64,000 bases of DNA from the human T2T-CHM13v2.0 reference genome, Homo sapiens, in the NCBI RefSeq assembly GCF_009914755.1, contig NC_060933.1; one strand, written 5' to 3'. Positions 19,201 through 59,937 of the stretch are shown in pieces (the stretch's first letter is position 1; each line of letters begins with the position of its first letter). A program made the translations under genes and the position numbers. Under the pieces are notes generated by a model. That model had not been told where the DNA came from. It searched no databases and saw only the letters and a list, made by a program, of their open reading frames with translations.

Positions 19201-22200
19201 CCATTCCATTCCATTCCTCTCCATTCCATTGCACTCGGGTTGATTCCATTCCATTGCATTCCATTCCATTCCATTCCATTCCATTCCGTTCCATTCCATT
19301 CCATTACATTCGGATTGATTCTATTCAACTCCCTTACTCTCCATTACATTCCATTCCATTCGGGTTGTTCCATTCCATTCCATTCCATTCCACTCCATTC
19401 CATTGCACTCGGGTTTATTCCATTCCATTCCATTCCATTCCATTCCATTCCATTCCATTCCATTCCATTCCGGAAGATTCCATTCCATTGCATTCCATTC
19501 CATTCCATTCCCCTGCACTCGCGTTGATTCCATTCCATTCCATTCCATTCCATTCCATTCCATTCCATTCCGTTCCGTTCCGTTCCATTCCATTCCATTC
19601 CATTCCATTCCGTTCCGTTCCGTTGCATTCCATTCCATTCCATTCCATTCTATTTGGGTTAATTCCATTCCATTCCATTCGATTGCAATCGAGTTGATTC
19701 CATTCCATTCCATTCCATTCCATTCCATTCCATTCCATTACGGATGATTCCATTCCTTTGCATTCCATTCCATTCCATTCCCCTGTACTCGGGTTGATTC
19801 CATTCCATTCCATTCCAATCCATGCCATTCCACTCGTGTTGATTCCATTCTTTCCATTCCATTCAAGTTGAATCCATTCCATTGCATTCCATTCCATTCG
19901 ATTCCATTCGATTGCACTCGGGTTGATTCCATTCCATTGCATTCCATTCCATTCCATTCCATTCCATTCCATTCCATTCCGTTCCATTCCATTCCATTAC
20001 ATTCGGATTAATTCTATTCAATTCCCTTACACTCCATTATATTCCATTCCATTCGGGTAGTTTCCATTCCATTCCATTCCATTCCTCTCCATTCCATTGC
20101 ACTCGGGTTGACTGCATTCCATTGCATTCCATTCCATTCCATTCAATTCCATTCCGTTCCATTCCATTCCATTATATTCGGATTGATTCTATTCAACTCC
20201 CGTACTCTCCATTACATTCGATTCCATTCGGGTTGTTCCATTCCATTCCATTCCATTCCACTCCATTTCATTGCACTCGGGTTGATTCCATTCCATTCCA
20301 TTCCATTCCGGAAGATTCCATTCCATTGCATTCCCTTACATTCCAATCCCCTGCACTCGCGTTGATTCCATTCCATTCCATTCCATTCCATTCCATTCCA
20401 TTCCATTCCTTTCCGTTCCATTCCATTGCATTCCATTCCATTCCATTCCATTCCATTCCATTCCGTTCCGTTCCGTTCCATTCCATTCCATTCCATTCTT
20501 TTCGGGTTAATTCCATTCCATTCCATTCCATTGCAATCGAGTTGATTCCATTCCATTCCATTCCATTCCATTCCATTCCATTCCTTTCCATTCCATTACG
20601 GATGATTCCATTCCATTGCATTCCATTCCATTCCATTCCCCTGTACTCGGGTTGATTCCATTCCATTCCATTCCAATCCATGCCATTCCACTCGTGTTGA
20701 TTCCATTCTTTCCATTCCATTCAAGTTGAATCCATTCCATTGCATTCCATTCCATTCCATTCCATTCCCCCGCAGTCGGGTTGATTCCATTCCATTCCAT
20801 TCCATTCCGTTCCTTTCCATTTAATTCCATTCCATTCTATTCGGGTTAATTCCATTCCATTCCATTCCATTCCATTCCATTCCATTCCAATCGAGTTGAT
20901 TCCATTCCATTCCATTCCATTCCATTCCACTCCATTCCAGTCCTTTCCATTCCATTCCCCTCGGGTTGATTCCAATGTATTCCTTTCCATTCCATTCCAT
21001 TTCATTGCAATCGAGTTGATTCCATTTCTTTGCATTCCATTCCATTCTATTCCATTCCGGATGATTCCATTCCATTGCATTCCATTCCATTCCGTTCCCC
21101 TGCACACGGGTTGATTCCATTCCATTCCACTCCATTCCGTTCCATTCCATTCCATTCCGTTGTATTCGGGTTAATTCCATTCCATTCCATTCCATTCCAT
21201 TCCATTCCATTCCAATCCATTACAATCGAGTTGATTCCATTCCATTCCATTCCATTCCATTCCATTCCATTCCAGTCCTTTCCATTCCATTCCACTCGGG
21301 TTGATTCCATTCTATTAGTTTCCATTCCATTCCATTCCCTTCCATTCCACTCTGGTTGATTCCATTCCTTTCCATTCCACTCGAATACATTCCCTCCTAT
21401 TCCACTCGGAACGATTCCATTCCATTCCATTCCATTCCATTCCATTCCATTCCATTCCATTTCGTTCCATTCCATTCTATTCCGTACCATTCCATTCCAT
21501 TGCATTCCTTTGCATTCCATTCCATTCCACTCGTGTTGATTCCATTCCTTTCCATTCCACTCGAATACATTCCCTCCTATTCCACTCGGAACGATTCCAT
21601 TCCATTCCATTCCATTTCGTTCCATTCCTTTCTATTCCGTACCATTCCATTCCATTCCATTCCATTCCATTCCATTCCATTCCATTCCATTCCATTGTAC
21701 TCGGGTTGATTCCATTACATTGCATTCCATTCCATTCCATTCCATTCCATTCTATTCCATTCCATTCCGTTGCATTCCATTCCATTACATTAGGATTGAT
21801 TCTATTCAACTCACTTACTCCCCATTACATTCCATTCCATTCGGGTTGTTCCATTCCATTCCATTCCATTCCACTCCATTCCATTGCACTCGGGTTGATT
21901 CCATTCCATTCCATTCCATTCCATTCCATTCCATTCCGGATAATTCCATTCCATTACATTCCGTTCCATTACATTCCCCTGCACTCGCGTTGATTCCATT
22001 CCATTCCATTCCGTTCCATTCCATTCCATTCCATTCCATTCGATTCCGTTCCTTTCCATTCCGTTCCATTCCATTCTATTCGGGTTAATTCCATTCCATT
22101 CCATTCGATTGCAATCGAGTTGATTCCATTCCATTGCATTCCATTCCATTCGATTCCATTCGATTGCACTCGGGTTGATTCCATTCCATTGCATTCCATT

Positions 22201-25200
22201 CTATTCCATTCCATTCCATTCCATTCCATTCCATTCCATTCCATTCCATTCCTTTCAGTTCCATTCCTTTCCATTACATTCGTATTGATTCTCTTCAATT
22301 CCCTTACACTCCATTACATTCCATTCCATTCGGGTAGTTTCCACTCCATTCCATTCCATTCCTCTCCATTCCATTGCACTCGGGTTGATTCCATTCCATT
22401 GCATTCCATTCCATTCCATTCAATTCCATTCCGTTCCATTCCATTCCATTCCATTACATTCGGATTGATTCTATTCAACTCCCTTACACTCCATTACATT
22501 CCATTCCATTCGGGTTGTTCCATTCCATTCCATTCCATTCCACTCCATTCCATTGCACTCGGGTTGATTCCATTCCATTCCATTCCATTCCATTCCGGAA
22601 GATTCCATTCCATTGCATTCCATTACATTCCATTCCCCTGCACTCGCTTTGATTCCATTCCATTCCATTCCATTCCATTCCATTCCATTCCGTTCCGTTC
22701 CGTTCCATTCCATTCCATTCCATTCCATTCCATTCCGTTCCGTTCCATTCCATTCCATTCCATTCTATTCGGGTTAATTCTATTCCATTCCATTCCATTC
22801 CATTCCATTCCGGAAGATTCCATTCCATTGCATTCCATTCCATTCCATTCCACTGCACTCGCGTTGATTCCATTCCATTCCATTCCATTCCATTCCATTC
22901 CATTCCATTCCTTTCCGTTCCATTCCATTTTATTCCATTCCATTCCGTTCCGTTCCCTTCCGTTCCGTTCCATTCCATTCCATTCCATTCTATTCGGGTT
23001 AATTGCATTCCATTTCATTCGACTGCAATCGAGTTGATTCCATTCCATTCCATTCCATTCCATTCCATTCCATTCCATTCCATTCCTTTCCATTCCATTC
23101 CGGATGATTCCATTCCATTGCATTCCGTTCCATTACATTCCCCTTCACTGGCGTTGATTCCATTCCATTCCATTCCATTCCATTCAATTCCATTCCATTA
23201 CAATTCGTTCCATTCCATTCTATTCCGTACCATTCCATTCCATTCCATACCATTCCATTCCATTCCATTCCATTCCATTCCATTCCATTCCGTTCCATTC
23301 CTTTCCATTCCATTCCATTCCATTCTATTTGGGTTAATTCCATTCCAATCCATTCCATTCCATTCCATTCCATTCTATTCCATTCCATTGCAATCGAGTT
23401 GAATCCATTGCATTTCATTCCATTCCATTCCATTCCATTCCATTCCATTCCGGAAGATTCCATTCCATTGCATTCCATTCCATTCCATTCCCCTGCACTC
23501 GCGTTGATTCCATTCCATTCCATTCCATTGCATTCCATTCCATTCCGTTCCGTTCCGTTCCGTTCCGTTCCATTCCATTCCATTCCGTTCCGTTAAGTTC
23601 CATTCCATTCCATTCCATTCTATGCGGGTTAATTCCATTCAATTCCATTCGATTGCAATCGAGTTGATTCCATTCCATTCAATTCCATTCTATTCCATTC
23701 CTTTCCATTCCATTACGGATGATTCCATTCCATTGCATTCCATTCCATTCCATTCCCGTGTACTCGGGTTCATTCCATTCCATTCCATTCCAATCCATGC
23801 CATTCCACTCGTGTTGATTCCATTCTTTCCATTCCATTCAAATTGAATCCATTCCATTGCATTCCATTCCATTCCATTCCCCTGCAGTCGGGTTGATTCC
23901 ATTCCATTCCATTCCATTCCATTCCATTCCATTCCATTCCACTCCAATCAAGTTGATTCCATTCCATTCCATTCCATTCCATTCCATTCCATTCCACTCC
24001 ATTCCAGTCCTTTCCATTCCATTCCACTCGGGTTGATTCCAATGTATTCCTTTCCATTCCATTCCATTCCATTGCAATCGAGTTGATTCCATTGCTTTGT
24101 ATTCCATTCCATTCCATTCCATTCCGGATGATTCCATTCCATTGCATTCCATTCCATTCCATTCCTCTGCACTCGGGTTGATTCCATTCCTTTCCACTCC
24201 ATTCCATTCCATTCCATTCCATTCCATTGTATTCGGGTTAATTCCATTCCATTCCATTCCATTCCATTCCAGTCCGTTCCATTCCATTCCAGTCGGGTTG
24301 ATTCCATTCTATTAGTTTCCATTCCATTCCATTCCCTTCCATTCCACTCTGGTTGATTCCATTCCTTTCCATTCCACTCGAATACATTCCCTCCTATTCC
24401 ACTCGGAACGATTCCATTCCATTCCATTCCATTCCATTCCATTCCATTCCATTTCGTTCCATTCCATTCTATTCCGTATCTTTCCATTCCATTCCATTCC
24501 ATTCCATTCCATTCCATTCCATTCCATTCCATTCCATTCCATTGTAGTCGGGTTGATTCCCTTCCATTGCATTCTATTCCATTCCATTCCATTCCATTCC
24601 GTTGCATTCCATTCCATTACATTCGGATTGATTCTATTCAACTCCCTTACTCTCCATTACATTCCATTCCATTCGGGTTGTTCCATTCCATTCCATTCCA
24701 TTCCACTCCATTCCATTGCACTCGGGTTGATTCCATTCCATTCCATTACATTCCATTCCGGAAGATTCCATTCCATTGCATTCCATTACATTCCATTCCC
24801 CTGCACTCGCTTTGATTCCATTCCATTCCATTCCATTCCATTCCATTCCGTTCCGTTCCATTCCATTCCATTCCATTCCATTCCATTCCGTTCCGTTCCA
24901 TTCCATTCCATTCCATTCTATTCGGGTTAATTCCATTCCATTCCATTCCATTCCGGAAGATTCCATTCCATTGCATTCCATTCCATTCCATTCCCCTGCA
25001 CTCGCGTTGATTCCATTCCATTCCATTCCATTCCATTCCATTCCATTCCATTCCTTTCCGTTCCATTCCATTGCATTCCATTCCATTCCGTTCCGTTCCC
25101 TTCCGTTCCGTTCCATTCCATTCCATTCCATTCTATTCGGGTTAATTCCATTCCATTCCATTCGACTGCAATCGAGTTGATTCCATTCCATTCCTTTCCA

Positions 25201-28200
25201 TTCCATTCCATTCCTTTCCATTCCATTACGGATGATTCCATTCCATTGCATTCCATTCCATTCCATTCCATTTTATTCGGGTTAATTCCATTCCATTCCA
25301 TTCCATTCCATTCTATTCCATTCCATAGCAATCGAGTTGAATCCATTGCATTCCATTCCATTCCATTCCGGAAGATTCCATTCCATTGTATTCCATTCCA
25401 TTCCATTCCCCTGCACTCGCGTTGTTTCCATTCCATTCCATTCCATTCCATTCCATTCCGTTCCGTTCCGTTCCATTCGATTCCATTCCATTCCGTTCCG
25501 TTCCGTTCCGTTCCATTCCATTCCATTCTATTCGGGTTAATTCCATTCCATTCCATTCGATTGCAATCGAGTTGATTCCATTCCATTCTATTCCGTTCCA
25601 TTCCATTCCATTCCATTCCTTTCCATTCCATTACGGATGATTCCATTCCATTGCAATACATTCCATTCCATTCCCTTGTACTCGGGTTGATTCCATTCCA
25701 TTCCATTCCATTCCATTCCATTCCATTCTATTCCATTCCATTCCATTCCATTCCGGAAGATTCCATTCCATTGCATTCCATTCCATTCCATTCCCCTGCA
25801 ATCGCGTTGATTCCATTCCATTCCATTCCATTCCATTCCATTCCGTTCCGTTCCATTCCATTCCATTCCATTCCATTCCGTTCCGTTCCGTTCCGTTCCA
25901 TTCCATTCCATTCCATTCTATTCGGGTTAATTCCATTCCATTCCATTCGATTGTAATCGTGTTGATTCCATTCCATTACATTCCATTCCATTCCATTCCA
26001 TTCCTTTCCATTCCATTACGGATGATTCCATTCCATTGCATTCCATTCCATTCCATTCCCCTGTACTCGGGTTGATTCCATTCCATTGCATTCCAATCCA
26101 TGCCCTTCCACTCGTGTTGATTCCATTCTTTCCATTCCATTCAAGTTGAATCCATTCCATTGCATTCCATTCAATTTGATTCCATTCGATTGCACTCGGG
26201 TTGATTCCATTCCATTGCATTCCATTCCATTCCACTCCATTCCATGCCATTCCATTCCGTTCTATTCCATTCCATTACATTCGGATTGATTCTATTCAAC
26301 TCCCTTACTCTCCATTACATTCCATTCCATTCGGGTTGTTCCATTCCATTCCATTCCCTTCCACTCCATTCCATTGCACTCGGGTTGATTCCATTCCTTT
26401 CCATTCCATTCCATTCCATTCCGGATGATTACATTCCATTGCATTCCATTCCATTACATTCCCCTGCACTCGCGTTGATTCCATTCCATTCCATTCCATT
26501 CAATTCCATTCCATTACAATTCGTTCCATTCTATTCTATTCCGTACCATTCCATTCCATTCCATGCCATTCCATTCCATTCCATTCCATTCCATTCCATT
26601 CCGTTCCATTCCGTTCCATTCCATTCCATTCTATTCGGGTTAATTCCATTCCATTCCATTCGATTGCAATCGAGTTGATTCCATTCCATTCCATTCCATT
26701 CCATTCCATTCCATTCCATTCCATACCATTCCTCTCCATTCCATTGCACTCGGGTTGATTCCATTCCATTGCATTCTATTCCATTCATTCAATTCCATTC
26801 CGTTCCATTCAATTCCATTACATTCGGATTGATTCTATTCAACTCCCTTACTCTCCATTCCATTCCATTCCATTCCACTCCATTCCATTGCACTCGGGTT
26901 GATTCCATTCCATTCCATTCCATTCCATTCCATTCCATTCCATTACAATCGAGTTGATTCCATTCCATTCCATTCCATTCCAGTCCTTTCCATTCCTTTC
27001 CACTCGGGTTGATTCCATTCTATTAGTTTCCATTCCATTCCATTCCCTTCCATTCCACTCTGGTTGATTCCATTCCTTTCCATTCCACTCAAATACATTC
27101 CCTCCTATTCCACTCGGAACGATTCCATTCCATTCCATTCCATTCAATTCCATTCCATTCCATTTCGTTCCATTCCATTCTATTCCATATCATTCCATAC
27201 CATTCCATTCCATTCCATTCCATTCCATTCCATTCCATTCCATTCCATTCCATTGTACTCGGTTTGATTCCATTCCATTGCATTCCATTCCATTCCATTC
27301 CATTCCATTCCATTCCATTCCATTCCATTCCGTTCCATTCCATTACATTCGGATTGATTCTTTTCAACTCCCTTACTCTCCATTACATTCCATTCCATTC
27401 GGATAGTTCCATTCCATTCCATTCCATTCCACTCCATTCCATTGCACTCGGGTTGATTCCATTCCATTCCATTGCATTCCATTCCGGATGATTCCATTCC
27501 CTTGCATTCCGTTCCATTACATTCACCTGCACTCGGGTTGATTCCATTCCATTCCATTCCATTCCATTCCATTCCATTCCTTTCCATTCCAGTCCTTTCC
27601 ATTCCATTCCACTCGGGTTGATTCCATTCTATTAGTTTCCATTCCATTCCATTCCCTTCCATTCCACTCTGGTTTATTCCATTCCTTTCCATTCCACTCG
27701 AATACATTCCCTCTTATTCCACTCGGAACGATTCCATTCCATTCCATTCCATTCCATTCCATTCCATTCCATTCCATTTCGTTCCATTCCATTCTATTCC
27801 GTATCATTCCATTCCATTCCATTCCATTCCATTCCATTCCACTCGTGTTGATTTCATTCCTTTCCATTCCATTCGGTTTGAAGGCATCCCATTCCATTCC
27901 ATTCCATTCCATTCCATTCCATTCCATTCCATTCCATTGTACTCGGGTTGATTCCATTCCATTGCATTCCATTCCATTCCATTCCATTCCATTCCATTCC
28001 GTTGCATTCCAATTCTTTCCATTCCATTCTATTCGGTACCATTCCATTCCATTCCATACAATTCCATTCCATTCCATTCCACTCCGTTCGGTTCCGTTCC
28101 GTTCCGTTCCGTTCCATTCCATTCCATTCCATTCTATTCGGTTTAATTCCATTCCATTCCATTCCATTCCATTCCATTCCATTCCATTCTATTCCATTCC

Positions 28201-30409
28201 ATTGCAATCGAGTTGAATCCATTGCATTCCATTCCATTCCATTCCGGAAGATTCCATTCCATTGCATTCCATTCCATTCCATTCCATTCCATTCCATTCC
28301 ATTCCATTCCATTCCATTCCATTGTACTCGGATTGATTCCATTCCATTGCATTCCATTCCATTCCATTCCATTCCATTCCATTCCATTCCGTTCCATTCC
28401 ATTCCATTACATTCGGATTGATTCTTTTCAACTCCCTTACTCTCCATTACATTCCATTCCATTCGGGTTGTTCCATTCCATTCCATTCCATTCCACTCCA
28501 TTCCATTGCACTCGGGTTGATTCCATTGCATTCCATTCCATTCCATTCCGGATGATTCCATTCCATTGCCTTCCGTTCCATTACATTCCCCTGCACTCGG
28601 GTTGATTCCATTCCATTCCATTCCATTCCATTCGATTCCATTCCATTCCCCTGCACTCGCGTTGATTCCATTCCATTCCATTCCATTCCTTTCCATTCCA
28701 GTCTTTTCCATTCCATTCCACTCGGGTTGATTGCATTCTATTAGTTTCCATTCCATTCCATTCCCTTCCATTCCACTCTGGTTGATTCCATTCCTTTCCA
28801 TTCCACTCGAATACATTCCCTCCTATTCCACTCGGAACGATTCCATTCCATTCCATTCCATTCCATTCCATTCCATTCCATTCCATTTCGTTCCATTCCA
28901 TTCTATTCCGTATCATTCCATTCCATTCCATTCCATTCCATTCCATTCCATTCCTCTCGCGTTGATTCCAATCCTTTCCATTCCATTCGGTTTGAAGGCA
29001 TTCCATTCCATTCCATTCCATTCCATTCCATTCCATTGTACTCGGGATGATTCCATTTCATTGCATTCCATTCCATTCCATTCCATTCCATTCCATTCCA
29101 TTCCATTCCGTTGCATTCCATTCCATTACATTCGGATTGATTCTATTCAACTCCCTTACTCTCCATTACGTTCCATTCCATTTGGGTTGTTCCATTCCTT
29201 TCCATTCCATTCCACTCCATTCCATTGTACTCGGGTTGATTCCATTCCATTCCATTCCATTCCATTCCGGATGATTACATTCCATTGCATTCCGTTCCAT
29301 TACATTCCCCTGCACTCGCGTTGATTCCATTCCATTCCATTCCATTCCATTCAATTCCATTCCATTACAATTCGTTCCATTCCATTCTATTCCGTACCAT
29401 TCCATTCCATTCCATACCATTCCATTCCATTCCATTCCATTCCATTCCATTCCATTCCGTTCCATTCCGTTCCATTCCATTCCATTCCATTCTATTCGGG
29501 TTAATTCCATTCCATTCCATTCCATTCCATTCCATTCCATTCCATTCCATTCTATTCCATTCCATTGCAGTCGAGTTGAATCAATTGCATTTCATTCCAT
29601 TCCATTCCATTCCATTCCATTCCGGAAGAGATTATTCCATTCCATTGCATTCCATTCCATTCCATTCCCCTGCACTCGCGTTCATTCCATTCCATTCCAT
29701 TCCATTCCATTCCATCCATTCCGTTCCGTTCCGTTCCATTCCATTCCATTCCATTCCGTTCCGTTCCATTCCATTCCATTCCATTCTATTCGGGTTAATT
29801 CCATTCCATTCCATTCGATTGCAATCGAGTTGATTCCATTCCATTCCATTCCATTCCATTCCATTCTTTCCAATCCATTACGGATGATTCCATTCCATTG
29901 CATTCCATTCCATTCCATTCCCCTGTACTCGGGTTGATTCCATTCCATTCCATTCCAATCCATGCCATTCCACTCGTGTTGATTCCATTCTTTCCATTCC
30001 ATTCAAGTTGAGTCCATTCCATTGCATTCCATTCCATTCGATTCCATTCGATTGCACTCGGGTTGATTCCATTCCATTGCATTGCATTCCATTCCATTCC
30101 ATTCCATTCCATTCCATTCCGTTCCATTCCATTCCATTACATTCGGATTGATTCTATTCAATTCCCTTACACTCCATTACATTCCATTCCATTCGGGTAT
30201 TTTCCATTCCATTCCATTCCATTCCCCTCCATTCCATTCCCTTCCATTCCATTCCATTACATTCGGATTGATTCTATTCAACTCCCTTACTCTCCATTAC
30301 ATTCGATTCCATTCGAGTTGTTCCATTCCATTCCATTCCATTCCACTCCATTCCATTGCACTCGGGTTTATTCCATTCCATTCCATTCCATTCCATTCCA
30401 TTCCATTCC

Positions 30410-30424
30410 ATTCCGGAAGATTCC
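30410..30424. promoter_or_regulatory. Perfect trimeric heat-shock element motif (nearest copy left of the breakpoint)
   Basis: aTTCc-gGAAg-aTTCc matches nTTCnnGAAnnTTCn. This is a motif match only; binding is not shown. Confidence 0.55.
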
Positions 30425-31987
30425 ATTCCATTGCATTCCATTCCATTCCATTCCCCTTCACTCGCGTTGATTCCATTCCATTCCGTTCCATTCCATTCCA
30501 TTCCATTCCATTCCATTCCTTTCCATTCCATTCCATTCCATTCCATTCCAATCCATTCCATTCCGTTCCTTTCCGTTCCATTCCATTCCATTCCATTCTA
30601 TTCGGGTTAATTCCATTCCATTCCATTCGATTGCAATCGAGTTGATTCCAATCCATTCTATTCCATTCCATTCCATTCCTTTCCATTCCATTACGGATGA
30701 TTCCATTCCATTGCATTCCATTCCATTCCATTCCCCTGTACTCGGGTTGATTCCATTCCATTCCATTCCAATCCATGCCATTCCACTCGTGTTGATTCCA
30801 TTCTTTCCATTCCATTCAAGTTGAATCCATTCCATTGCATTCCATTCCATTCCATTACCCTGCAGTCGGGTTGATTCCATTCCATTCCATTCCATTCCAT
30901 TGCATTCCATTCCATTCCATTCCGTTCCGTTCCATTCCATTCCATTCCATTCTATTCGGGTTAATTCCATTCCATTCCATTCCATTGCATTCCATTCCAA
31001 TCGAGTTGATTCCATTCCATTCCATTCCATTCCATTCCACTCCATTCCAGTCCTTTCCATTCCATTCCACTCGCGTTGATTCCAATGTATTCCTTTCCAT
31101 TCCATTCCATTCCATTGCAATCGAGTTGATTCCATTGCTTTGCATTCCATTCCATTCCATTCCATTCCGGATGATTCCATTCCATTGCATTCCATTCCAT
31201 TCCATTCCCCTGCACTCGGGTTGATTCCATTCAATTCCACTCCATTCCGTTCCATTCCATTCCATTCCATTGTATTCGGGTTAATTCCATTCCATTCCAT
31301 TCCATTCCATTCCATTCCATTCCATTACAATCGAGTTGATTCCATTCCAATCCATTCCATTCCAGTCCTTTCCATTCCATTCCACTCGGGTTGATTCCAT
31401 TCTATTAGTTTCCATTCCAATCCATTCCCTTCCATTCCACTCTGGTTGATACCACTCCTTTCCATTCCACTCGAACACATTCCCTCCTATTCCACTCGGA
31501 ACGATTCCATTCCATTCCATTCCATTCCATTCCATTCCATTCCATTCCATTCCATTTCGTTCCATTCCATTCCATTTCGTTCCATTCCATTCTATTCCGT
31601 ATCTTTCCATTCCATTCCATTCCATTCCATTCCATTCCATTGTACTCGGGTTGATTCAATTCCATTGCATTCCATTCCATTCCATTCCATTCCATTCCGT
31701 TGCATTCCATTCCATTACATTCGGATTGATTCTATTCAACTCCCTTACTCTCCATTACATTCCACTCCATTCGGGTTGTTCCATTCCATTCCATTCCATT
31801 CCACTCCATTCCATTGCACTTGGGTTGATTCTATTCCATTGCATTCCATGCCATTCCATTCCATTCCGGATGATTCCATTCCATTGCATTCCGTTCCATT
31901 ACATTCCCCTGCACTCGCGTTGATTCCATTCCATTCCATTCAATTCCATTCCATTACAATTCGTTCCATTCCATTCTATTCCGTACC

Positions 31988-32091
31988 ATTCCATTCCATT
32001 CCATACCATTCCTTTCCATTCCATTCCATTCCGAATGGAATGGAATGGAATGGAATGGAATGGAAAGGAATGGTATGGAATGGAATGGAAT
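31988..32091. repeat. Perfect 45-bp inverted repeat (31988-32032 / 32047-32091) with 14-nt loop
   Basis: The reverse complement of 31988-32032 is ggaatggaatggaatggaaaggaatggtatggaatggaatggaat, identical to 32047-32091. It includes two non-consensus pentamers (GAAAG, GTATG) at identical spacing. Confidence 0.9.
32021..32045. other. Strand-inversion breakpoint inside the satellite array
   Basis: The sequence reads ...ccattccattcc|gaatggaatgg... with the switch between 32032 and 32033 and no inserted foreign bases. It is the only orientation switch seen in the window. Confidence 0.97.
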
Positions 32092-32286
32092 CAACTCGAT
32101 TGCAATCGAATGGAATGGAATGGAATTAACCTGAATAGAATGGAATGGAATGGAATGGAACGGAACGGAATCGAATGGAATGGAATGGAATGGAACGGAA
32201 AGGAAGGGAATGGAATGGAATAGAATGGAATGGAATGGAATCAACGCGAGTGCAGGGGAATGGAATGGAATGGATTGCAATGGAAT

Positions 32287-32301
32287 GGAATCTTCCGGAA
32301 T
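32287..32301. promoter_or_regulatory. Perfect trimeric heat-shock element motif (nearest copy right of the breakpoint)
   Basis: gGAAt-cTTCc-gGAAt matches nGAAnnTTCnnGAAn. A second copy lies at 32891-32905. Motif match only. Confidence 0.55.
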
Positions 32302-34334
32302 GGAATGGAATGGAATGGAATGGAATGGAATGGAATGGAATGGAATCAACTCGAGTGCAATGGAATGGAGTGGAATGGAATGGAATGGAATGGAACAACC
32401 CAGATGGAATGGAATGTAATGGAGAGTAAGGGAGTTGAATAGAATCAATCCGAATGTAATGGAATGGAATGGAAAGGAATGGAATGGAATGGAATGCAAT
32501 GGAATGGAATCAACCCGAGTACAATGGAATGGAATGGAATGGAACGGAATGGAATGGAATGGAATGGAATCAACCCGAGTACACGGGAATGGAATGGAAT
32601 GGAATGCAATGGAATGGAATCATCCGTAATGGAATGGAAAGGAATGGAATGGAATGGAATGGAATGGAATGGAATGGAATGGAATCAACTCGACTGCAAT
32701 CGAATGGAATGGAATGGAATTAACCCGAATAGAATGGAATGGAATGGAATGGAACGGAACGGAACGGAATGGAATGGAATGGAATGGAATGGAATGGAAC
32801 GGAACGGAACGGAGTGGAATGGAATGGAATGGAATGGAATGGAATCAACGCGAGTGCAGGGGAATGGAATGGAATGGAATGCAATGGAATGGAATCTTCC
32901 GGAATGGAATGGAATGGAATGGAATGGAAGGAAATGCAATGGATTCAACTCGATTGCAATGGAATGGAAAAGAATGGAATGGAATGGAATGGAATGGAAT
33001 TAATCCGAATGGAATGGAATGGAACGGAATGGAACGGAATGGAATGGAATGGAATGGTATGGAATGGAATGGAATGGTACGGAATATAATGGAATGGAAC
33101 GAATTGTAATGGAATGGAATTGAATGGAATGGAATGGAATGGAATGGAATCAACGCGAGTGCCGGGGAATGTAATGGAACGGAATGCAATGGAATGGAAT
33201 CATCCGGAATGGAATGGAATGGAATGGAATGGAATGGAATGGAATGGAATGGAATCAACCCGAGTGCAATGGAATGGAGTGGAAAGGAATGGAATGGAAT
33301 GGAACAACCCGAATGCAATGGAATGTAATGGAGAGTAAGGGAGTTGAATAGAATCAATCCGAATGTAATGGAATGGAATGCAACGGAATGGAATGGAATG
33401 GAATGGAATGGAATGCAATGGAATGGAATGCAATGGAATTGAATCAACCCGAGTACAATGGAATGGAATGGAATGGAATGGAATGGAATGGAATGGAATG
33501 GAATGATACGGAATAGAATGGAATGGAACGAAATGGAATGGAATGGAATGGAATGGAATGGAATGGAATGGAATGGAATGGAATGGAATCGTTCCGATTG
33601 GAATAGGAGGGAATGTATTCGAGTGGAATGGAAAGGAATGGTATCAACCAGAGTGGAATGGAAGGGAATGGAATGGAAAGGAAATTAATAGAGTGGAATC
33701 AACCCGAGTGGAATGGAATGGAAAGGACTGGAATGGAATGGAATGGAATGGAATCAACTCGATTGTAATGGAATGGAATGGAATGGAATGGAATGGAATG
33801 GAATTAACCCGAATACAATGGAATGGAATGGAACGGAACGGAATGGAGTGGAATGGAATGGAATCAACCCGAGTGCAGGGGAATGGAATGGAATGCAATG
33901 CAATGGAATGGAATCATCCGGAATGGAATGGAATGGAATGGAATGGAATGCAAAGCAATGGAATCAACTCGATTGCAATGGAATGGAATGGAATGGAAAG
34001 GAATACATTGGAATCAACCCGAGTTGAATGGAATCGAAAGGACTGGAATGAGTGGAATGGAATGGAATGGAATGGAATGGAATCAATTCGATTGGAATGG
34101 AATGGAATGGAATGGAATGGAATGGAATGGAATTAACCCGAATGGAATGGAATGGAATGGAATGGAACGGAACGGAATGGAATGGAATGGAATGGAATGG
34201 AACGGAATGGAATGGAATCAACCCGACTGCAGGGGAATGGAACGGAATGGAATGCAATGGAATGGATTCAACTTGAATGGAATGGAAAGAATGGAATCAA
34301 CACGTGTGGAATGGCATGGATTGGAATGGAATGG

Positions 34335-37300
34335 AATGGAATCAACCCGAGTACAGGGGAATGGAATGGAATTGAATGCAATGGAATGGAATCATCAGTA
34401 ATGGAATGGAATGGAAAGGAATGGAATGGAATGGAATGGAATGGAATAGAATGGAATGGAATCAACTCGATTGCAATCGAATGGAATGGAATGGAATTAA
34501 CCTGAATAGAATGGAATAGACTGGAATGGAACGGAACGGAACGGAATGGAATGGATTGGAATGGAATGGAATGGAATGGAACGGAAAGGAATGGAATGGA
34601 ATGGAATGGAATGGAATGGAATGGAATGGAATGGAATCAACGCGAGTGCAGGGGAATGGAATGGAATGGAATGCAATGGAATGGAATCTTCCGGAATGGA
34701 ATGGAATGGAATGGAATGGAATGGAATGGAATAAACCTGAGTGCAATGTAATGGAGTGGAATGGAATGGAATGGAATGGAACAACCCGAATGGAATGGAA
34801 TGTAATGGAGAGTAAGGGAGTTGAATAGAATCAATCCGAATGTAATGGAATGGAATGGAACGGAATGGAATTGAATGGAATGGAATGGAATGCAATGGAA
34901 TGGAATCAACCCGAGTGCAATGGAATGGAGAGGAATGGAATGGAATGGAATGGAAACTACCCGAAAGGAATGGAATATAATGGAGTGTAAGGCAATTGAA
35001 TAGAATAAATCCGAATGTAATGGAATGGAATGGAACGGAATGGAATGGAATGGAATGGAATGGAATGGAATCAACCCGAGTGCAATGGAATGGAATCAAA
35101 TGGAATGGAATGGATTCAACCCGAATGGAATGGAAAGGTATAGAATCAACCCGAGTGGAACGGCATGGAATGGAATGGAATGGAATGGAATGGAATGGAA
35201 CGGAACGGAACGGAATGGAATGGAATGGAATGGAACGGAACGGAACGGAATGGAATGGAATGGAATGGAATGGAATGGAATGGAATCAACGCGAGTGCAG
35301 GGGAATGGAATGAAATGGAATGCAATGGAATGGAATCTTCCGGAATGCAATGGAATGGAATGGAATGGAATGAAATTCAATCGATTCAACTCGATTGCAA
35401 TGGAATGGAATAGAATGGAATGGAATGGAATGGAATGGAATTAATCCGAATAGAATGGAATGGAATGGAATGGAACGGAATGGAACGGAATGGAATGGAA
35501 TGGAATGGAATGGTATGGAATGGAATGGAATGGTACGGAATAGAATGGAATGGAACGAATTGTAATGGAATGGAATTGAATGGAATGGAATGGAATGGAA
35601 TGGAATCAACGCGAGTGCAGGGGGATGTAATGGAACGGAATGCAATGGAATGGAATCATCCGGAATGGAATGGAATGGAATGCAATGGAATGGAATCAAC
35701 CCGAGTACAATGGAATGGAGTGGAATGGAATGGAATGGAATGGAATCAACCGGAATGGAATGGAATGGAATGGAATGGAATGGAATCAACCCGAGTGCAA
35801 TGGAATGCAGAGGAATGGAATGGAATGGAATGGAAACTACCCGAATGGAATGTAATGTAATGGAGTGTAAGGGAATTGAATAGAATGAATCCGAATGGAA
35901 TGTAAAGGAATGGAAAGGAATGGAATGGAATGGAATGGAATGGAATGGAATGGAATGCAATGCCATGGAATCAACACGAGTGCAATCGAATGGAATCGAA
36001 TGGAATGGGATGTAATGGAATGGATTCATCTTGAATGGAATGGAAAGAACGGAATCAACACGAGTGGAATGGCATGGATTGGAATGGAATGGATTGGAAT
36101 CAACCCGAGTACAGGGGAATGGCATGGAATGGAATGAAATGGAATCGAATCATCCGTAACGTAATGGAAAGGAATGGAATGGAATGGAATGGAATGGAAG
36201 GGAATGGAATCAACCCGAGTACAGGGGAATGGAATGGAATTGAATGCAATGGAATGGAATCATCAGTAATGGAATGGAATGGAAAGGAATGGAATGGAAT
36301 GGAATGGAATGGAATAGAATGGAATGGAATCAACTCGATTGCAATCGAATGGAATGGAATGGAATTAACCCGAATAGAATGGAATAGACTGGAATGGAAC
36401 GGAACGGAACGGAATGGAATGGATTGGAATGGAATGGAATGGAATGGAACGGAAAGGAATGGAATGGAATGGAATGGAATGGAATGGAATGGAATGGAAT
36501 GGAATGGAATCAACGCGAGTGCAGGGGAATGGAATGGAATGGAATGCAATGGAATGGAATCTTCCGGAATGGAATGGAATGGAATGGAATGGAATGGAAT
36601 GGAATAAACCTGAGTGCAATGTAATGGAGTGGAATGGAATGGAATGGAATGGAACAACCCGAATGGAATGGAATGTAATGGAGAGTAAGGGAGTTGAATA
36701 GAATCAATCCGAATGTAATGGAATGGAATGGAACGGAATGGAATTGAATGGAATGGAATGGAATGCAATGGAATGGAATCAACCCGAGTGCAATGGAATG
36801 GAGAGGAATGGAATGGAATGGAATGGAAACTACCCGAAAGGAATGGAATATAATGGAGTGTAAGGCAATTGAATAGAATAAATCCGAATGTAATGGAATG
36901 GAATGGAACGGAATGGAATGGAATGGAATGGAATGGAATGGAATCAACCCGAGTGCAATGGAATGGAATCAAATGGAATGGAATGGATTCAACCCGAATG
37001 GAATGGAAAGGTATAGAATCAACCCGAGTGGAATGGCATGGAATGGAATGGAATGGAATGGAATGGAATGGAACGGAACGGAACGGAACGGAATGGAATG
37101 GAATGGAATGGAACGGAACGGAACGGAATGGAATGGAATGGAATGGAATGGAATGGAATGGAATGGAATCAACGCGAGTGCAGGGGAATGGAATGAAATG
37201 GAATGCAATGGAATGGAATCTTCCGGAATGCAATGGAATGGAATGGAATGGAATGAAATTCAATCGATTCAACTCGATTGCAATGGAATGGAATAGAATG

Positions 37301-38085
37301 GAATGGAATGGAATGGAATGGAATTAATCCGAATAGAATGGAATGGAATGGAATGGAACGGAATGGAACGGAATGGAATGGAATGGAATGGAATGGTATG
37401 GAATGGAATGGAATGGTACGGAATAGAATGGAATGGAACGAATTGTAATGGAATGGAATTGAATGGAATGGAATGGAATGGAATGGAATCAACGCGAGTG
37501 CAGGGGGATGTAATGGAACGGAATGCAATGGAATGGAATCATCCGGAATGGAATGGAATGGAATGCAATGGAATGGAATCAACCCGAGTACAATGGAATG
37601 GAGTGGAATGGAATGGAATGGAATGGAATCAACCGGAATGGAATGGAATGGAATGGAATGGAATGGAATCAACCCGAGTGCAATGGAATGCAGAGGAATG
37701 GAATGGAATGGAACGGAAACTACCCGAATGGAATGTAATGTAATGGAGTGTAAGGGAATTGAATAGAATGAATCCGAATGGAATGTAAAGGAATGGAAAG
37801 GAATGGAATGGAATGGAATGGAATGGAATGGAATGGAATGCAATGCCATGGAATCAACACGAGTGCAATCGAATGGAATCGAATGGAATGGGATGTAATG
37901 GAATGGATTCATCTTGAATGGAATGGAAAGAACGGAATCAACACGAGTGGAATGGCATGGATTGGAATGGAATGGATTGGAATCAACCCGAGTACAGGGG
38001 AATGGCATGGAATGGAATGAAATGGAATCGAATCATCCGTAACGTAATGGAAAGGAATGGAAAGGAATGGAATGGAATGGAATGG
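34335..38085. repeat. Recent tandem duplication, 2 x ~1.87-1.88 kb (~34335-36200 and ~36205-38085)
   Basis: ORF pairs at offsets 1873 (34637/36510) and 1883 (35286/37169, 35895/37778). Shared rare variants include catcagtaa, taaggcaattg, ggaaaggtataga, gaaattcaatcgattc and catccgtaac. Confidence 0.92.
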
Positions 38086-41000
38086 AATGGAATGGAATGG
38101 AATGGAATGGAATGGAATCAACTCGATTGCAATCGAATGGAATGGAATGGAATTAACCCGAATAGAATGTAATGGAATGGAATGGAATGGAACGGAACGG
38201 AATGGAGTGGAATGGAATGGAATGGAAAGGAATGGAACGGAACGGAACGGAACGGAACGGAATGGAATGGAATGGAATGGAATGGAATCAACGCGAGTGC
38301 AGGGGAATGGAATGGAATGGAATGCAATGGAATGGAATCTTCCGGAATGGAATGGAATGGAATGGAATAGAATGGAATGGAATGGAATGGAATGGAATGG
38401 AATCAACCCGAGTACAAGGGAATGGAATGGAATGTAATGCAATGGAATGGAATCATCCGTAATGGAATGGAAAGGAATGGAATGGAATGGAATGGAATGG
38501 AATGGAATTAACTCGATTGCAATCGAATGGAATGGAATGGAATTAACCCAAATAGAAAGGAATGGAATGGAACGGAACGGAACGGAACGGAATGGAATGG
38601 AATGGAATGGAATGGAATGGAACGGAATGGAACGGAACGGAATGGAATGGAATGGAATGGAATGGAATCAACCCGAGTGCAGGGGAATGGAATGGAATGG
38701 ATTGCAATGGAATGGAATCTTCCGGAATGGAATGGAATGGAATGCAATGGATTCAACTCGATTGCAATGGAATGGAATAGAATGGAATGGAATGGAATGG
38801 AATGGAATTAACCCGAATAGAATGGAATGGAATGGAATGGAACGGAATGGAATGGAATGGTATGGAATGGAATGGAATGGAATGGAATGGTATGGAATGG
38901 AATGGAATGGTACGGAATAGATTGGAATGGAACGAATTGGAATGGAATGGAATCGAATGGAATTGAATGGAATGGAATGGAATCAACCGGAGTGCAGGGG
39001 AATGTAATGGAACGGAATTCAATGGAATGGAATCATCCGGGATGGAATGGAATGGAATGGAATGGAATGGAATGGAATGGAATGCAATGGAATGGAATCA
39101 ACCCGAGTACAATGGAATGGAATGGAATGGAATGGAATGGAATGGAATGGAATGGAATGGAATGCAATGGAATGGAATGGAATCAACCCGAGTGCAATGG
39201 AATAGAGAGGAATGGAATGGAAAGGAATGGAAACTACCCGAATGGAATGGAATGTAATGGAGTGTAAGGGAATTGAATAAAATCAATCCGAATGGAATGG
39301 AATGGAATGGAACGGAATGTAATGTAATGGAATGGAATGGAATCAACCCGAGTGCAGGGGAATGGAATGGAATGGAATGCAATGGAATGGAATCATCCAG
39401 AATGGAATGGAATGGAATGGAATCAACTCCATTGCAATGGAATGGAATCGAATGGAATGGAATAGAAAGGAATGGAATTAACCCGAATAGAATGGAATGC
39501 AATCGAATGGAATGCAATGGAACCGAATGGAGGTGAATGGAATGGAATGGAATCAACCCGAGTACAGAGGAATGGAATGGAATGGAATGCAATGGAATGG
39601 AGTCATCCGTAATGGAATGGAATGGAATGGAATGGAATGGAATGGAATGGAATGGAATCAACTCGATGGCAATCGAATGGAATGGAATGGAATTAACCCG
39701 AATAGAATTGAATGGAATGGAATGGAACGGAACGGAATGGAATGGAATGGAATCGTTCCGAGTGGAATAGGAGGGAATGTATTCGAGTGGAATGGAAAGG
39801 AATGGAATCAACCAGAGTGGAATGGAAGGGAATGGAATGGAATGGAAACTAATAGAATGGAATCAACCCGAGTGGAATGGAATGGAAAGGACTGGAATGG
39901 AATGGAATGGAATGGAATGGAATGGAATCAACTCGATTGTAATGGAATGGAATGGAATGGAATGGAATGGAATGGAATGGAATTAACCCGAATACAATGG
40001 AATGGAATGGAATGGAACGGAATGGAGTGGAATGGAATGGAATCAACCCGAGTGCAGGAGAATGGAATGGAATGGAATGCAATGGAATGGAATCATCCGG
40101 AATGGAATGGAATGGAATGGAATCAACACGATTGCAATCGAATGGAATGGAATGGAATTAACCCGAATAGAATGGAATGGAATGGATTGGAACGGAACGG
40201 AATGGAATGGAATGGAATGGAATGGAATGGAACGGAACCGAACGGAATGGAATGGAATGGAATGGAATGGAATGGAATGGAATCAACGCGAGTGCAGGGG
40301 AATGGCATGGAACGGAATGCAATGGAATGGAATCTTCAGGAATGGAATGGAATGGAATGGAATGGAATGAAATGCAATGGATTCAACTCGATTGCAATGG
40401 AATGGATTAGAATGGAATGGAATGGAATGGAATGGGATTAACCCGAATAGAATGGAATGGAATGGAATGGAACGGAATGTAACGGAATGGAATGGAATGG
40501 AATGGAATGGAATGGAATGGAATGGTATGGAATGGAATGGAATGGTACGGAATAGAATGGAATGGAACGAATTGTAATGGAATGGAATTGAATGGAATGG
40601 AATGGAATGGAATGGAATCAATGCGAGTGAAGGGGAATGTAATGGAACGGAATGCAATGGAATGGAATCATCCGGAATGGAATGGAATGGAATGGAATGG
40701 AATGCAATCAACCCGAGTGCAATGGAATGGAGTGGAATGGAATGGAATGGAATGGAACAACCCGAATGCAATGGAATGTAATGGAGAGTAAGGGAGTTGA
40801 ATAGAATCAATCCGAATGTAATGGAATGGAATGCAACGGAATGGAATGGAATGGAATGGAATGGAATGGAAGGGAATGGAATGCAAAGGAATGGAATCAA
40901 CCCGAGTGGAATGGCATGGAATGGAATGCAATGGATTGGAATGGAATGGAATCAACTCGACAGAAAAGGAATGGAATAGAATGGAAAGGAATGGAATGAA

Positions 41001-44000
41001 GTCAACTCGAGTGGAATGAAATGGAATGGAATGGAATGGAATCAATCATGGAAGGGAATGTAATGCAGTGGAAAGAAGGGAATGGAATCAACCCGAGTGG
41101 AATGCAAGGCAATGGAAAGGAATGGAAAGGAATGGAATGGAATCAACTCGATTGCAATGGAATGGAATGGAATGGAATGGAATGGAATGGAATGGAATTA
41201 ACCGGAATAGAATGGAATGGAATGGAATGGAACGGAATGGAATGGAATGGAATGGAAGGGAATGGAATCAACACGAGTGCAGGGGAATGGAATGGAATGG
41301 AATGCAATGGAATGGAATCATCCGGAATGGAATGGAATGGAATGGAGTCAACTCCATTGCAATGGAATGGAATGGAATGGAATGGAATAGAATGGAATGG
41401 AATTAACCCGAATAGAATGGAATGCAATAGAATGGAATGCAATGGAACCGAATGGAGTGGAATGGAATGGAATGGAATCAACCCGAGAACAGAGGAATGG
41501 AATGGAATGGAATGCAATGGAATGGAGTCATCCGTAATGGAATGGAAAGGAATGGAATGGAATGGAATGGAATGGAATGGAATGGAATGGAATGGAATCA
41601 ACTCGATGGCAATCGAATGGAATGGAATGGAATTAACCCGAATAGAATGGAATGGAATGGAATGGAACGGAACGGAATGGAATGGAATGGAATGGAATGG
41701 AATGGAACGGAACGGAACGGAATGGAATGGAATGGAATGGAATGGAATGGAATGGAATCAACGCGAGTGCAGGGGAATTGAATGGAATGGAATGCAATGG
41801 AATGGAATCTTCCGGAATGGAATGGAATGGAATGGAATGGAATGGAATGAAAGGCAATGGATTCAACTCGATTGCAATGGAATGGAATAGAATGGAATGG
41901 AATGGAATGGAATGGAATTGAATGTAATGGAATGCCTTCAAACCGAATGGAATGGAAAGGAATGGAATCAACACGAGTGGAAAGGAATGGAATGGAAAGG
42001 AATGGAAATGAATGGAATGGTACGGAATAGAACGGAATGGAACGAACTGGAATGGAATGGAATGGAATGGAATGGAATGGAATGGAATGGAATGGAATGG
42101 AATCGTTCCGAGTGGAATAGGAGGGAATGTATTCTAGTGGAATGGAAAGGAATGGAATCAACCAGAGTGGAATGGAAGGGAATGGAATGGAATGGAAACT
42201 AATAGAATGGAATCAACCCGAGTGGAATGGAATGGAAAGGACTGGAATGGAATGGAATGGAATGGAATGGAATGGAATCAACTCGATTGTAATGGAATGG
42301 AATGGAATGGGATGGAATGGAATGGAATTAACCCGAATACAATGGAATGGAATGGAATGGAACGGAATGGAGTGGAATGGAATGGAATCAACCCGAGTGC
42401 AGGGGAATGGAATGGAATGGAATGCAATGGAATGGAATCATCCGGAATGGAATGGAATGGAATGGAATGCAAAGCAATGGAATCAACTCGATTGCAACGG
42501 AATGGAATGGAATGGAAAGGAATACATTGGAATCAACCCGAGTGGAATGGAATGGAAAGGAATGGAATGGAGTGGAATGGAATGGAATGGAATGGAATGG
42601 AATTAACCCGAATAGAATGGAAAGGAATGGAATGGAACGGAACGGAACGGAACGGAATGGAATGGAATGGAATGGAATGGAATGGAATGGAATCAACCCG
42701 ACTGCAGGGGAATGGAATGGAATGGAATGCAATGGAATGGATTCAACTTGAATGGAATGGAAAGAATGGAATCAACACGAGTGGAATGGCATGGATTGGA
42801 ATGGAATGGAATGGAATCAACCCTAGTACAGGGGAATGGAATGGAATGTAATGCAATGGAATGGAATCATCCGTAATGGAATTTAAAGGAATGGAATGGA
42901 ATGGAATGGAATGGAATGGAATGGAATGGAATCAACTCGATTGCAATCGAATGGAATGGAATGGAATTAACCCGAATGGAATGCAATGGAATGGAATGGA
43001 AGGGAACGGAACGGAACGGAATGGAATGGAATGGAATGGAATGGAATGGAATGGAACGGAAAGGAATGGAATGGAATGGAATGGAATGGAATGGAATGGA
43101 ATGGAATGGAATCAACGCGAGTGCAGGGGAATGGAATGGAATGGAATGCAATGGAATGGGATCTTCCGGAATGGAATGGAATGGAATGGAATGGAATGGA
43201 ATGAAATGGAATAAACCCGAGTGCAATGGAATGGAGTGGAATGGAATGGAATGGAATGGAACAACCCGAATGGAATGGAATGTAATGGAGAGTAAGGGAG
43301 TTGAAAAGAATCAATCCGAATGTAATGGAATGGAATGGAACGGAATGGAATGGAATGGAATGGAATGGAATGGAATGCAATGGAATGGAATCAACCCGAG
43401 TGCAATCGAATGGAATCGAATGGAATGGAATGCAATGGAATGGATTCAACTTGAATGGAATGGAAAGAATGGAATCAACACGAGTGGAAGGGCATGGATT
43501 GGAATGCAATGGAATGGAATCAACCCGAGTACAGGGGAATGGAATGGAATGGAATGCAATGGAATGGAATCATCCGTAATGGAATGGAAAGGAATGGAAT
43601 GGAATGGAATGGAATGGAATGGAATGGAATTGAATCAACTCGATTGCAATCGAATGGAATGTAATGGAATTAACCCGAATTGAATGGAATTGAATGGAAT
43701 GGAACGGAATGGAATGGAATGGAATGGAACGGAATGGAATGGAACGGAATGGAATGGAATGGAATGGAATGGAATGGAATCAACCCGAGTGCAGGGGAAT
43801 GTAATGGAACGGAATGCAATGGAATGGAATCATCCGGAATGGAATGGAATGCAATGGAATGGAATGGAATCAACCCGAGTGCAATGGAATGGAGTGGAAT
43901 GGAATGGAATGGAATGGAACAACCCGAATGGAATGGAATGTAATGGAGAGTAAGGGAGTTGAATAGAATCAATCCGAATGTAATGGAATGAAACGGAATG

Positions 44001-51436: not shown

Positions 51437-51481
51437 GGAACGGAACGGAACGGAACGGAACGGAACGGAACGGAACGGAAC
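51437..51481 (+). repeat. (GGAAC)9 variant-pentamer run
   Basis: Nine consecutive GGAAC units, the longest such run seen in the window. Confidence 0.9.
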
Positions 51482-59892: not shown

Positions 59893-59937
59893 GGAACGGA
59901 ACGGAACGGAACGGAACGGAACGGAACGGAACGGAAC
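59893..59937 (+). repeat. (GGAAC)9 variant-pentamer run, duplicate copy
   Basis: Same run at offset 8456 in the second copy of the 8.46 kb unit. Confidence 0.9.

What the first reader, a model, noticed from the sequence alone, without database searches (positions are those of the whole stretch)
32021..32045. Seamless strand inversion joining two >30 kb HSat3 blocks back to back
Seen: CATTC switches to GAATG at 32032/32033 with no linker, TE or unique sequence. The join (ttcc-gaat) is one base short of the symmetric ttcc-ggaat. Established: orientation switches exist in HSat3 arrays of complete human assemblies, notably the chr9q12 block, so the class is not new, but their junction mechanism is poorly understood. 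Inference: because both flanks are the same pentamer, the region is a giant quasi-palindrome able to form hairpins or cruciforms in many 5-bp registers, making it a candidate fragile or recombination site.
Basis: partly seen in the sequence, partly recalled or inferred. Interest (0 to 1): 0.75.

Follow-up and report, generated by a model that had tools for sequence, protein, structure and literature searches.

The report
Copied satellite inversion junction, later rewritten
This is a real back-to-back join inside the large chromosome 9 satellite block, one of 17 near-identical copies that likely descend from one old microhomology join, and its centre was likely rewritten later by a short fold-back copying slip; such switches are known, but most appear to be copies of a few events.

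Summary
The switch is real: CATTC repeats end at 32031, one C sits at 32032, GAATG repeats start at 32033, with no linker. It lies in the chr9 HSat3B5 array, where strand switches are published (over 200 in CHM13 with beta-satellite; about 129 per HPRC haplotype). It is not a giant palindrome: mirror symmetry is a 45-bp perfect inverted repeat with a 14-nt spacer, and beyond 60 bp the mirror identity (0.78-0.84) equals that of random pairs (0.80). The junction has 17 copies on chr9 with shared flanks. Eleven keep a GT centre that matches the native repeat units on both sides through a 5-bp microhomology (chance 0.0014). Six, including this one, form a clade that lost the GT and carry a mirror copy of two left-arm variants, best explained by a short template switch (about 60%). 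The nearest copy (chr9:58.657 Mb) has no substitutions and belongs to the known multi-megabase duplication. Four junction cores account for 169 of at least 207 switches that I could infer, so most breakpoints look duplicated rather than independent. No evidence of gross fragility was found. Known class, new detail; interest 0.42.

The parts
1..32031 (+). HSat3B5 block, CATTC on the + strand; continues upstream of the window
   Evidence: pentamer counts; 18 of 44 HSat3B5 24-mer matches, all on +; upstream samples
32032..32033 (.). Strand-switch junction (chr9:69,286,032/3); C32032 is the unpaired centre base
32033..64000 (-). HSat3B5 block in the opposite orientation (GAATG on +); 38.5 kb in all, ending at chr9:69,324,49x in a GAATG-to-CATTC junction outside the window
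   Evidence: 26 of 44 HSat3B5 24-mer matches, all on -
31988..32032 (+). Left arm of the 45-bp perfect inverted repeat
32033..32046 (.). 14-nt spacer of the perfect inverted repeat (GAATG-type units)
32047..32091 (-). Right arm of the 45-bp perfect inverted repeat
32001..32017 (+). Left-arm marker carrying two variant pentamers (ATACC, TTTCC); likely template of the mirrored copy
   Evidence: this 17-mer occurs in the window only here and at 32062 on the other strand
32062..32078 (-). Mirror copy of the left-arm marker in the right arm; present in 6 of 17 junction copies (4 of them with one further change), absent in the 11 GT-centre copies
47800..64000 (.). 8.46-kb direct tandem duplication inside the GAATG block (approximate ends; second copy runs off the window)

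Best explanation
The junction is one of 17 chr9 copies with shared flanks, which likely descend from one old microhomology-mediated join between opposite strands of HSat3B5 and were likely spread by duplication; in the lineage of this copy a short fold-back template switch likely rewrote the centre. Step 1 (inferred, about 0.8): a break or stalled fork in a CATTC-strand unit annealed through 5 bp (TCCGT) to a different unit position on the opposite strand, giving the GT-centred join still seen in 11 copies. Step 2 (shared flanks shown; descent inferred, about 0.93): segmental and tandem duplications carried the join to 17 places in both orientations, about 10 lineages after collapsing near-identical pairs; the latest step is the multi-megabase duplication that pairs this copy with chr9:58.657 Mb. 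Step 3 (inferred, about 0.6): because the join puts (ATTCC)n next to (GGAAT)n, a polymerase at the centre switched strand, copied 33-50 nt of the left arm backwards and rejoined the right arm, removing the GT and lengthening the inverted repeat. Step 4 (inferred, weaker): a second small switch or slippage moved the centre in this copy and its twin. The feature is a mutational scar with no known function.
For: Shared flanks: all 17 copies fall in one group at under 6% mismatch from -1400 to +300 bp (alignments). Polarity and microhomology: 80 of 95 non-junction copies of the right unit are preceded by ATGGAATCATCC and 13 of 17 non-junction copies of the left unit continue with GT, so the GT-centre join shares TCCGT with both; random opposite-strand joins reach 5 bp in 0.14% of cases. 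Clade: the six GT-less copies are one side of a branch with 99/97 support on left-flank sequence alone, and 6 flank columns unite them against the other 11. Mirror: the right-arm marker is in 6 of 17 junction copies but only 5 other places genome-wide against 7,923 copies of the adjacent anchor (patterns overlap but are not identical); in four copies it is in exact register, giving 49-bp arms with 1 mismatch and a 1-nt spacer. A four-point fit from GT copies to 54.755 leaves 1 mismatch with a 33-nt reverse-complement insert starting at the centre. Duplication: 0 substitutions in 3,126 aligned bases against 58.657; junctions from 54.6 to 60.7 Mb recur in order 10.57-10.65 Mb downstream; Nurk et al. 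describe this duplication (PMC9186530, passages).
Against: The four-point margin is thin: a direct-copy control leaves 2 mismatches and a plain deletion 3-4, against 1 for the inverted copy; for the window's own copy the inverted and direct fits tie (2 v 2 from GT copies, 1 v 1 from 54.755). The right-arm marker arose at least twice away from junctions (5 copies, two flank types), so point mutation or gene conversion can make it. The left TTTCC variant is at 13 non-junction places and 10 junction places, so it is no sign of arm-to-arm copying. Four copies carry a symmetry-breaking change in the mirrored marker. One conflicting flank column was seen. The downstream junction is not the reciprocal product, so the original event cannot be reconstructed as a simple two-break inversion. 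No reads, other haplotypes or ape genomes could be examined.
Confidence: 0.6

Rival explanations
1. Same single origin and duplication, but the centre of the six derived copies changed by ordinary means: a small deletion of the GT, pentamer slippage and one to three point changes, or gene conversion from a rare paralogous unit. The extra symmetry is coincidence.
For: Plain deletion plus 3-4 substitutions, or a direct copy plus 2, also fits. The marker exists in 5 non-junction copies. Pentamer runs change length often among the 17 copies.
Against: Needs the changes to land in exact mirror register with both left-arm variants and the centre. The 5 possible donors differ from the junction copies within 6-23 bp downstream and in the units upstream. 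Background frequency is about 5 in 7,900.
Confidence: 0.28
2. The present join was made in one step as a fold-back (hairpin-primed) inversion at the palindrome centre, and the region is an active fragile giant quasi-palindrome.
For: Strong predicted hairpin; longest perfect arm of the 17 copies (45 bp against 22-32); no perfectly symmetric centre with these arms is found in the genome (0 of 25 matches), as expected if such centres are unstable.
Against: A fold-back origin predicts mirror flanks; they are not mirror images beyond 45-50 bp. Eleven copies with the same flanks keep an older GT centre. Flanks are not more rearranged than at a weaker-hairpin family.
Confidence: 0.06
3. The switch, or only the missing centre base, is a sequencing or assembly artefact (fold-back read, chimera, or homopolymer miscall at a hairpin tip).
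For: Both derived centres are one-base shortenings of a dinucleotide run, a common long-read error type (recalled). The twin at 58.657 Mb may share graph nodes with this copy (PMC9186530 Fig. 2C legend), so it is not independent proof.
Against: Fifteen other copies with 1-5% diverged, tree-structured flanks; centre type follows the tree and not the chromosomal orientation; flanks are not mirror images; switches are reported across HPRC and APG haplotypes.
Confidence: 0.04

Closest known systems
Inversion breakpoints (strand switches) of the chr9 HSat3B5 array (Altemose et al., 10.1101/2021.07.12.452052; 10.64898/2026.09.03.749043; 10.64898/2026.07.22.740206)
   Same: Same array, same kind of orientation switch. 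Passages read give over 200 breakpoints (with beta-satellite arrays), about 129 switches per HPRC haplotype, and a switch count that scales with array length (r = 0.90).
   Different: The passages I read count switches but give no junction sequences, families or microhomologies; one calls them stochastic by-products of expansion. Here 169 of at least 207 inferred switches share four cores. Supplements were not seen.
Recent multi-megabase HSat3 tandem duplication, 9qh+ at 9q12 in CHM13 (Nurk et al., PMC9186530)
   Same: Explains the substitution-free twin 10.63 Mb upstream and the colinear repeat of junctions.
   Different: It explains only the last doubling; about 10 older lineages of the junction predate it. 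The GAATG block differs by 4.4 kb between the twins.
Quasi-palindrome template switching, four-point model (Loytynoja and Goldman, PMC5453318; Ripley mechanism)
   Same: A short reverse-complement copy next to an inverted repeat that perfects the arms and can invert the spacer; the best fit has switch points 1 and 2 one base apart (order 3-1-2-4).
   Different: That study analysed unique, unmasked sequence. Here the repeat is low-complexity, so the fit separates the models by only 1-3 changes.
Microhomology-mediated rearrangement junctions (MMEJ, MMBIR/FoSTeS; names recalled, the latter two also named in PMC5453318)
   Same: Blunt-looking join with 5 bp shared by both parental sequences and no insertion.
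   Different: Both parents are the same satellite on opposite strands; end-joining and replicative switching cannot be told apart from one junction.
Long fragile palindromes and fold-back inverted duplications (review PMC7999016, passages; PMC3907307, search listing only)
   Same: Adjacent inverted repeat able to form a hairpin.
   Different: Perfect arms here are 45 bp; flanks are not mirror copies, so it is not a fold-back inverted duplication.

Membership tests
HSat3 | Array derived from (CATTC)n, not the CATTCGATTC-rich HSat2 type (contrast recalled; HSat2 24-mers in PMC4022460 Table 1 agree) | tested here: met
   CATTCCATTC 2,551, CATTCGATTC 47; 52.5% of bases in exact pentamers
HSat3B5 (chr9 array) | Subfamily-specific 24-mer of PMC4022460 Table 1 | tested here: met
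   44 exact matches on both sides of the join; HSat3B3 and HSat3B1 24-mers 0 each; the other 11 subfamily 24-mers not tested
HSat3B5 (chr9 array) | Location in the 9q12 block | tested here: met
   window is C9:69,254,001-69,318,000; related units span about 49.8-76.4 Mb
chr9 HSat3B5 inversion breakpoints | Switch of satellite strand between two long blocks | tested here: met
chr9 HSat3B5 inversion breakpoints | Listed in the published breakpoint tables | not testable with these tools
   Science paper and review not held; preprint supplements closed
Simple reciprocal inversion | The other end of the inverted block is the reciprocal product of this junction | tested here: not met
   the downstream junction joins other unit positions through ACTC and shares its core with 43 other places
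Microhomology-mediated junction | Bases shared by both parental sequences at the join, above chance | tested here: met
   5 bp in the 11 GT-centre copies, chance 0.0014; erased in the window's copy
Quasi-palindrome template switch product | Cluster of changes explained by a reverse-complement copy better than by controls | tested here: inconclusive
   1 mismatch v 2 (direct) v 3-4 (deletion only) for 54.755; tie for the window's copy
Quasi-palindrome template switch product | Derived state has longer or better-centred arms than the ancestral state | tested here: met
   45 bp perfect (window), 49 bp with 1 mismatch and 1-nt spacer (four copies) v 22-32 bp perfect in GT copies; predicted folding energy is not lower (-52 to -53 v -50 to -59)
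Long palindrome / fold-back inverted duplication | Arms are mirror copies over hundreds of bases or more | tested here: not met
   mirror identity 0.78-0.84 beyond 60 bp; random pairs 0.80
Fragile site | Excess breakage or rearrangement in cells or pedigrees | not testable with these tools
   only indirect: flank conservation among copies shows no excess

The most novel reading that the evidence does not exclude
The 200-odd 'inversions' of the largest human satellite array are not 200 events: about four ancient microhomology joins were amplified by duplication and make up roughly four fifths of all switches, and the head-to-head joins then act as hairpin tips that keep rewriting themselves by template switching, never settling on a perfect centre. 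The junction cores would then be countable k-mer markers for dating and genotyping 9qh expansion from short reads.
Probability: 0.5. Interest if true: 0.62.

Novelty: new member of a known kind. Interest (0 to 1): 0.42.

Why it matters
The chr9 HSat3 array is the only large HSat array described as full of strand switches, and the papers I read count them without explaining them. If most switches are copies of a few joins, the switch count measures duplication history and not inversion rate, which would explain the published scaling with array length. The junction cores are rare 22-27-mers in otherwise unmappable DNA, so they can serve as landmarks for aligning 9qh haplotypes and for counting copies in short reads. 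The 17 copies also form a natural series for testing whether hairpin-driven template switching acts in heterochromatic satellite DNA. No gene or function is involved, and nothing here shows fragility.

Tried and rejected
Giant mirror palindrome: rejected. Simple reciprocal inversion of the 38.5-kb block: rejected, the far junction is not the reciprocal. Three independent one-base changes from a perfect ancestral centre (my first idea): dropped, because the GT centre matches the native units on both sides. Left-arm TTTCC as a copy of the right arm: not supported, 13 of 23 genome matches are away from junctions. Spacer or TE at the opposite-type (GAATG-to-CATTC) junctions: not seen in 3 of 3 read. 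A strict pattern for opposite-type junctions found only 2 chr9 places and a loose one listed mostly other chromosomes; both were uninformative for a census. mis-oriented copies because its anchor lies on both arms; replaced. A self-BLAST of the two arms timed out; replaced by k-mer diagonals. Flanks of the 44-copy core were read for 1 of 44 and of the 28-copy core for 1 of 28, so their common descent stays open. Literature: seven searches gave no paper whose listing or read passages describe junction families or microhomology at chr9 HSat3 switches; the Science version and the 2022 review were not held and preprint supplements were not seen, so prior description there is not excluded.

Full report
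Observation. The sequence reads CATTC-type up to 32031, C at 32032 and GAATG-type from 32033, with nothing between. Per-kb counts switch completely at that point. Both sides carry the HSat3B5 24-mer of PMC4022460 Table 1 (passages): 18 matches on + left of the join and 26 on - right of it, while the HSat3B3 and HSat3B1 24-mers give 0. The window is chr9:69,254,001-69,318,000. The GAATG block ends at chr9:69,324,49x and is 38.5 kb long. Seven of seven samples from 68.95 to 69.22 Mb are CATTC-strand.

How palindromic it is. In the centred register the perfect arms are 18 bp. The longest perfect inverted repeat is 31988-32032 with 32047-32091, 45 bp with a 14-nt spacer, folding at -53.5 kcal/mol. 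Non-junction 120-mers fold at -2.8 +/- 1.8 and 300 random inverted joins of the same satellite at -37.9 +/- 8.1, so any such join makes a hairpin and this one is toward the strong end. Beyond 60 bp the mirror identity is 0.78-0.84 in seven bins, the same as 30 random pairs (mean 0.80), and the longest exact inverted match between the blocks (266 bp) is not in mirror position. The 'giant quasi-palindrome' exists only at the level of the shared pentamer.

A family of copies. A DNA search with the junction scored 40 of 439 candidates and gave 10 full-length hits, all on chr9. An exact centre pattern gave 25 matches at 19 places, 17 on chr9 and 2 on chr7 with other flanks, and 0 for the control. 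All 17 have the same flanks: one group at under 6% mismatch from -1400 to +300 bp, three groups further right, with 1-5% substitutions in most near bins. Copies with a mutated centre would be missed, so 17 is a lower bound. The copy at 58.657 Mb has 0 substitutions in 3,126 aligned bases. Junction cores from 54.6 to 60.7 Mb recur in the same order 10.57-10.65 Mb downstream, and those from 52.1 to 54.6 Mb recur 8.7-8.8 Mb downstream. Nurk et al. describe a recent multi-megabase tandem HSat3 duplication at 9q12 resolved by two traversals of one graph loop (PMC9186530, passages); the twin is therefore not independent evidence. Collapsing near-identical pairs leaves 10 different rows.

The original join. 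Eleven copies read ATTCC-GT-AATGG at the centre. In 272,701 bases of window and loci, 80 of 95 non-junction copies of the right unit are preceded by ATGGAATCATCC, and 13 of 17 non-junction copies of the left unit continue with GT. Both parents thus share TCCGT at the join. Random opposite-strand joins reach 5 bp in 0.14% of 400,000 trials. This fixes the polarity (GT is ancestral) and points to a microhomology-mediated join; whether by end-joining or replicative switching cannot be told (inference). The far end of the GAATG block joins other unit positions through ACTC (chance 0.7%) and is not the reciprocal product, so the block is not a simple two-break inversion.

The rewritten centre. Six copies (54.755, 65.335, 72.221, 72.813; 58.657 and the window's) lack the GT. 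They are one side of a branch with 99/97 support on left-flank sequence, and six flank columns unite them against the other 11; one column conflicts. Their right arm carries GGAAA GGAAT G/CGTAT, the mirror of the left arm's ATACC ATTCC TTTCC. In four copies the mirror is in exact register, 49-bp arms with 1 mismatch around a 1-nt spacer. A four-point template-switch fit (model of PMC5453318, passages) from the nearest GT copies leaves 1 mismatch with a 33-nt reverse-complement insert beginning at the centre. The marker occurs at 11 places genome-wide, 6 at these junctions and 5 elsewhere, against 7,923 copies of the adjacent anchor. Against this reading: controls leave only 2 (direct copy) or 3-4 (deletion alone) mismatches; for the window's own copy inverted and direct fits tie; the marker arose at least twice without a junction; the left TTTCC variant is at 13 non-junction places of 23; and predicted folding energy did not fall. 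I put the template switch at about 0.6. The two derived centres (ATTC-GGAAT, ATTCC-GAAT) are reverse complements, which fits a later spacer inversion or slippage (inference). No symmetric centre was among the 25 matches.

The wider array. A second CATTC-to-GAATG core (GTGTGC centre) has 80 copies, all on chr9; 30 of 80 were read, all are true switches, and 26 and 28 of 30 group together on the near flanks. Two GAATG-to-CATTC cores have 44 and 28 copies; flanks were read for one copy of each, so recurrence at a preferred microhomology is not excluded. Ordering 172 located junctions and requiring alternation gives at least 207 switches, of which 169 share these four cores. The total is a minimum: samples at 68.85-68.95 Mb show a further hidden pair.

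What is known. Altemose et al. report over 200 inversion breakpoints in the chr9 HSat3B5 and beta-satellite arrays (10.1101/2021.07.12.452052, section 7 read). A pangenome preprint gives about 129 switches per haplotype on chr9 (10.64898/2026.09.03.749043, passages). Another finds that switch number scales with array length (r = 0.90) and calls the switches stochastic by-products of expansion (10.64898/2026.07.22.740206, passages; 'microhomology' 0 times in its main text). A palindrome review says short or absent spacers and longer arms raise risk (PMC7999016, passages). PMC11526998 and 10.64898/2026.07.13.738322 (passages) added nothing on junctions. Seven searches showed no junction-level account; the Science paper and the 2022 review were not held and preprint supplements were not seen, which may bear on novelty.

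Artefact and fragility. A fold-back read would give mirror flanks, which are absent, and 15 diverged copies with tree-consistent centres argue against a chimera. A one-base miscall at the hairpin tip cannot be excluded without reads. Flanks of this family are no more rearranged than those of the weaker-hairpin 80-copy family (the families may differ in age), so fragility is unsupported.

Verdict. A real, ordinary member of a known class, whose history can be read: one microhomology join, many duplications, and a likely fold-back rewrite of the centre. The more interesting result is that most chr9 switches share four cores. Interest 0.42.

Noticed in passing
chr9 52.3-76.4 Mb; loci L028-L057: An 80-copy CATTC-to-GAATG junction core (GTGTGC centre, 2-bp microhomology) is the dominant switch of the array, in both orientations.
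   Followed up: partly
L078 around 6,980-7,000 (chr9:69,324,49x): The GAATG-to-CATTC junction closing the block shares its core with 43 other chr9 places; its variant core is found only here and at 58.70 Mb. It is the next located junction on the right-arm side for 12 of the 17 copies, in matching orientation for 10, at 10-69 kb, which suggests a cassette copied as a unit.
   Followed up: partly
L059 around 3,480 (chr9:52,957,865): A second GAATG-to-CATTC core with 28 copies on chr9.
   Followed up: partly
window 47,800-64,000: 8.46-kb direct tandem duplication inside the GAATG block; the block is 38.5 kb here and 42.8 kb in the 58.66-Mb twin, so the twins differ by a 4.4-kb indel.
   Followed up: partly
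L058 (chr9:70,853,800-70,863,600): Two copies of the 80-copy junction only 9.5 kb apart, with a 1.1-kb GAATG block between the first and a further type of opposite junction.
   Followed up: no
L009, L010 (chr7:58.73 and 59.04 Mb): Two copies, in opposite orientation, of a different head-to-head satellite junction on chr7 with a CCAATGG centre; further opposite-type junctions nearby.
   Followed up: no
L085-L087 (chr9:68.85-68.95 Mb): Samples show a hidden pair of switches that none of the four cores marks.
   Followed up: no
window 1809, 8593, 17041, 45778: Isolated opposite-strand pentamers made by point variants inside normal units; not micro-inversions.
   Followed up: yes
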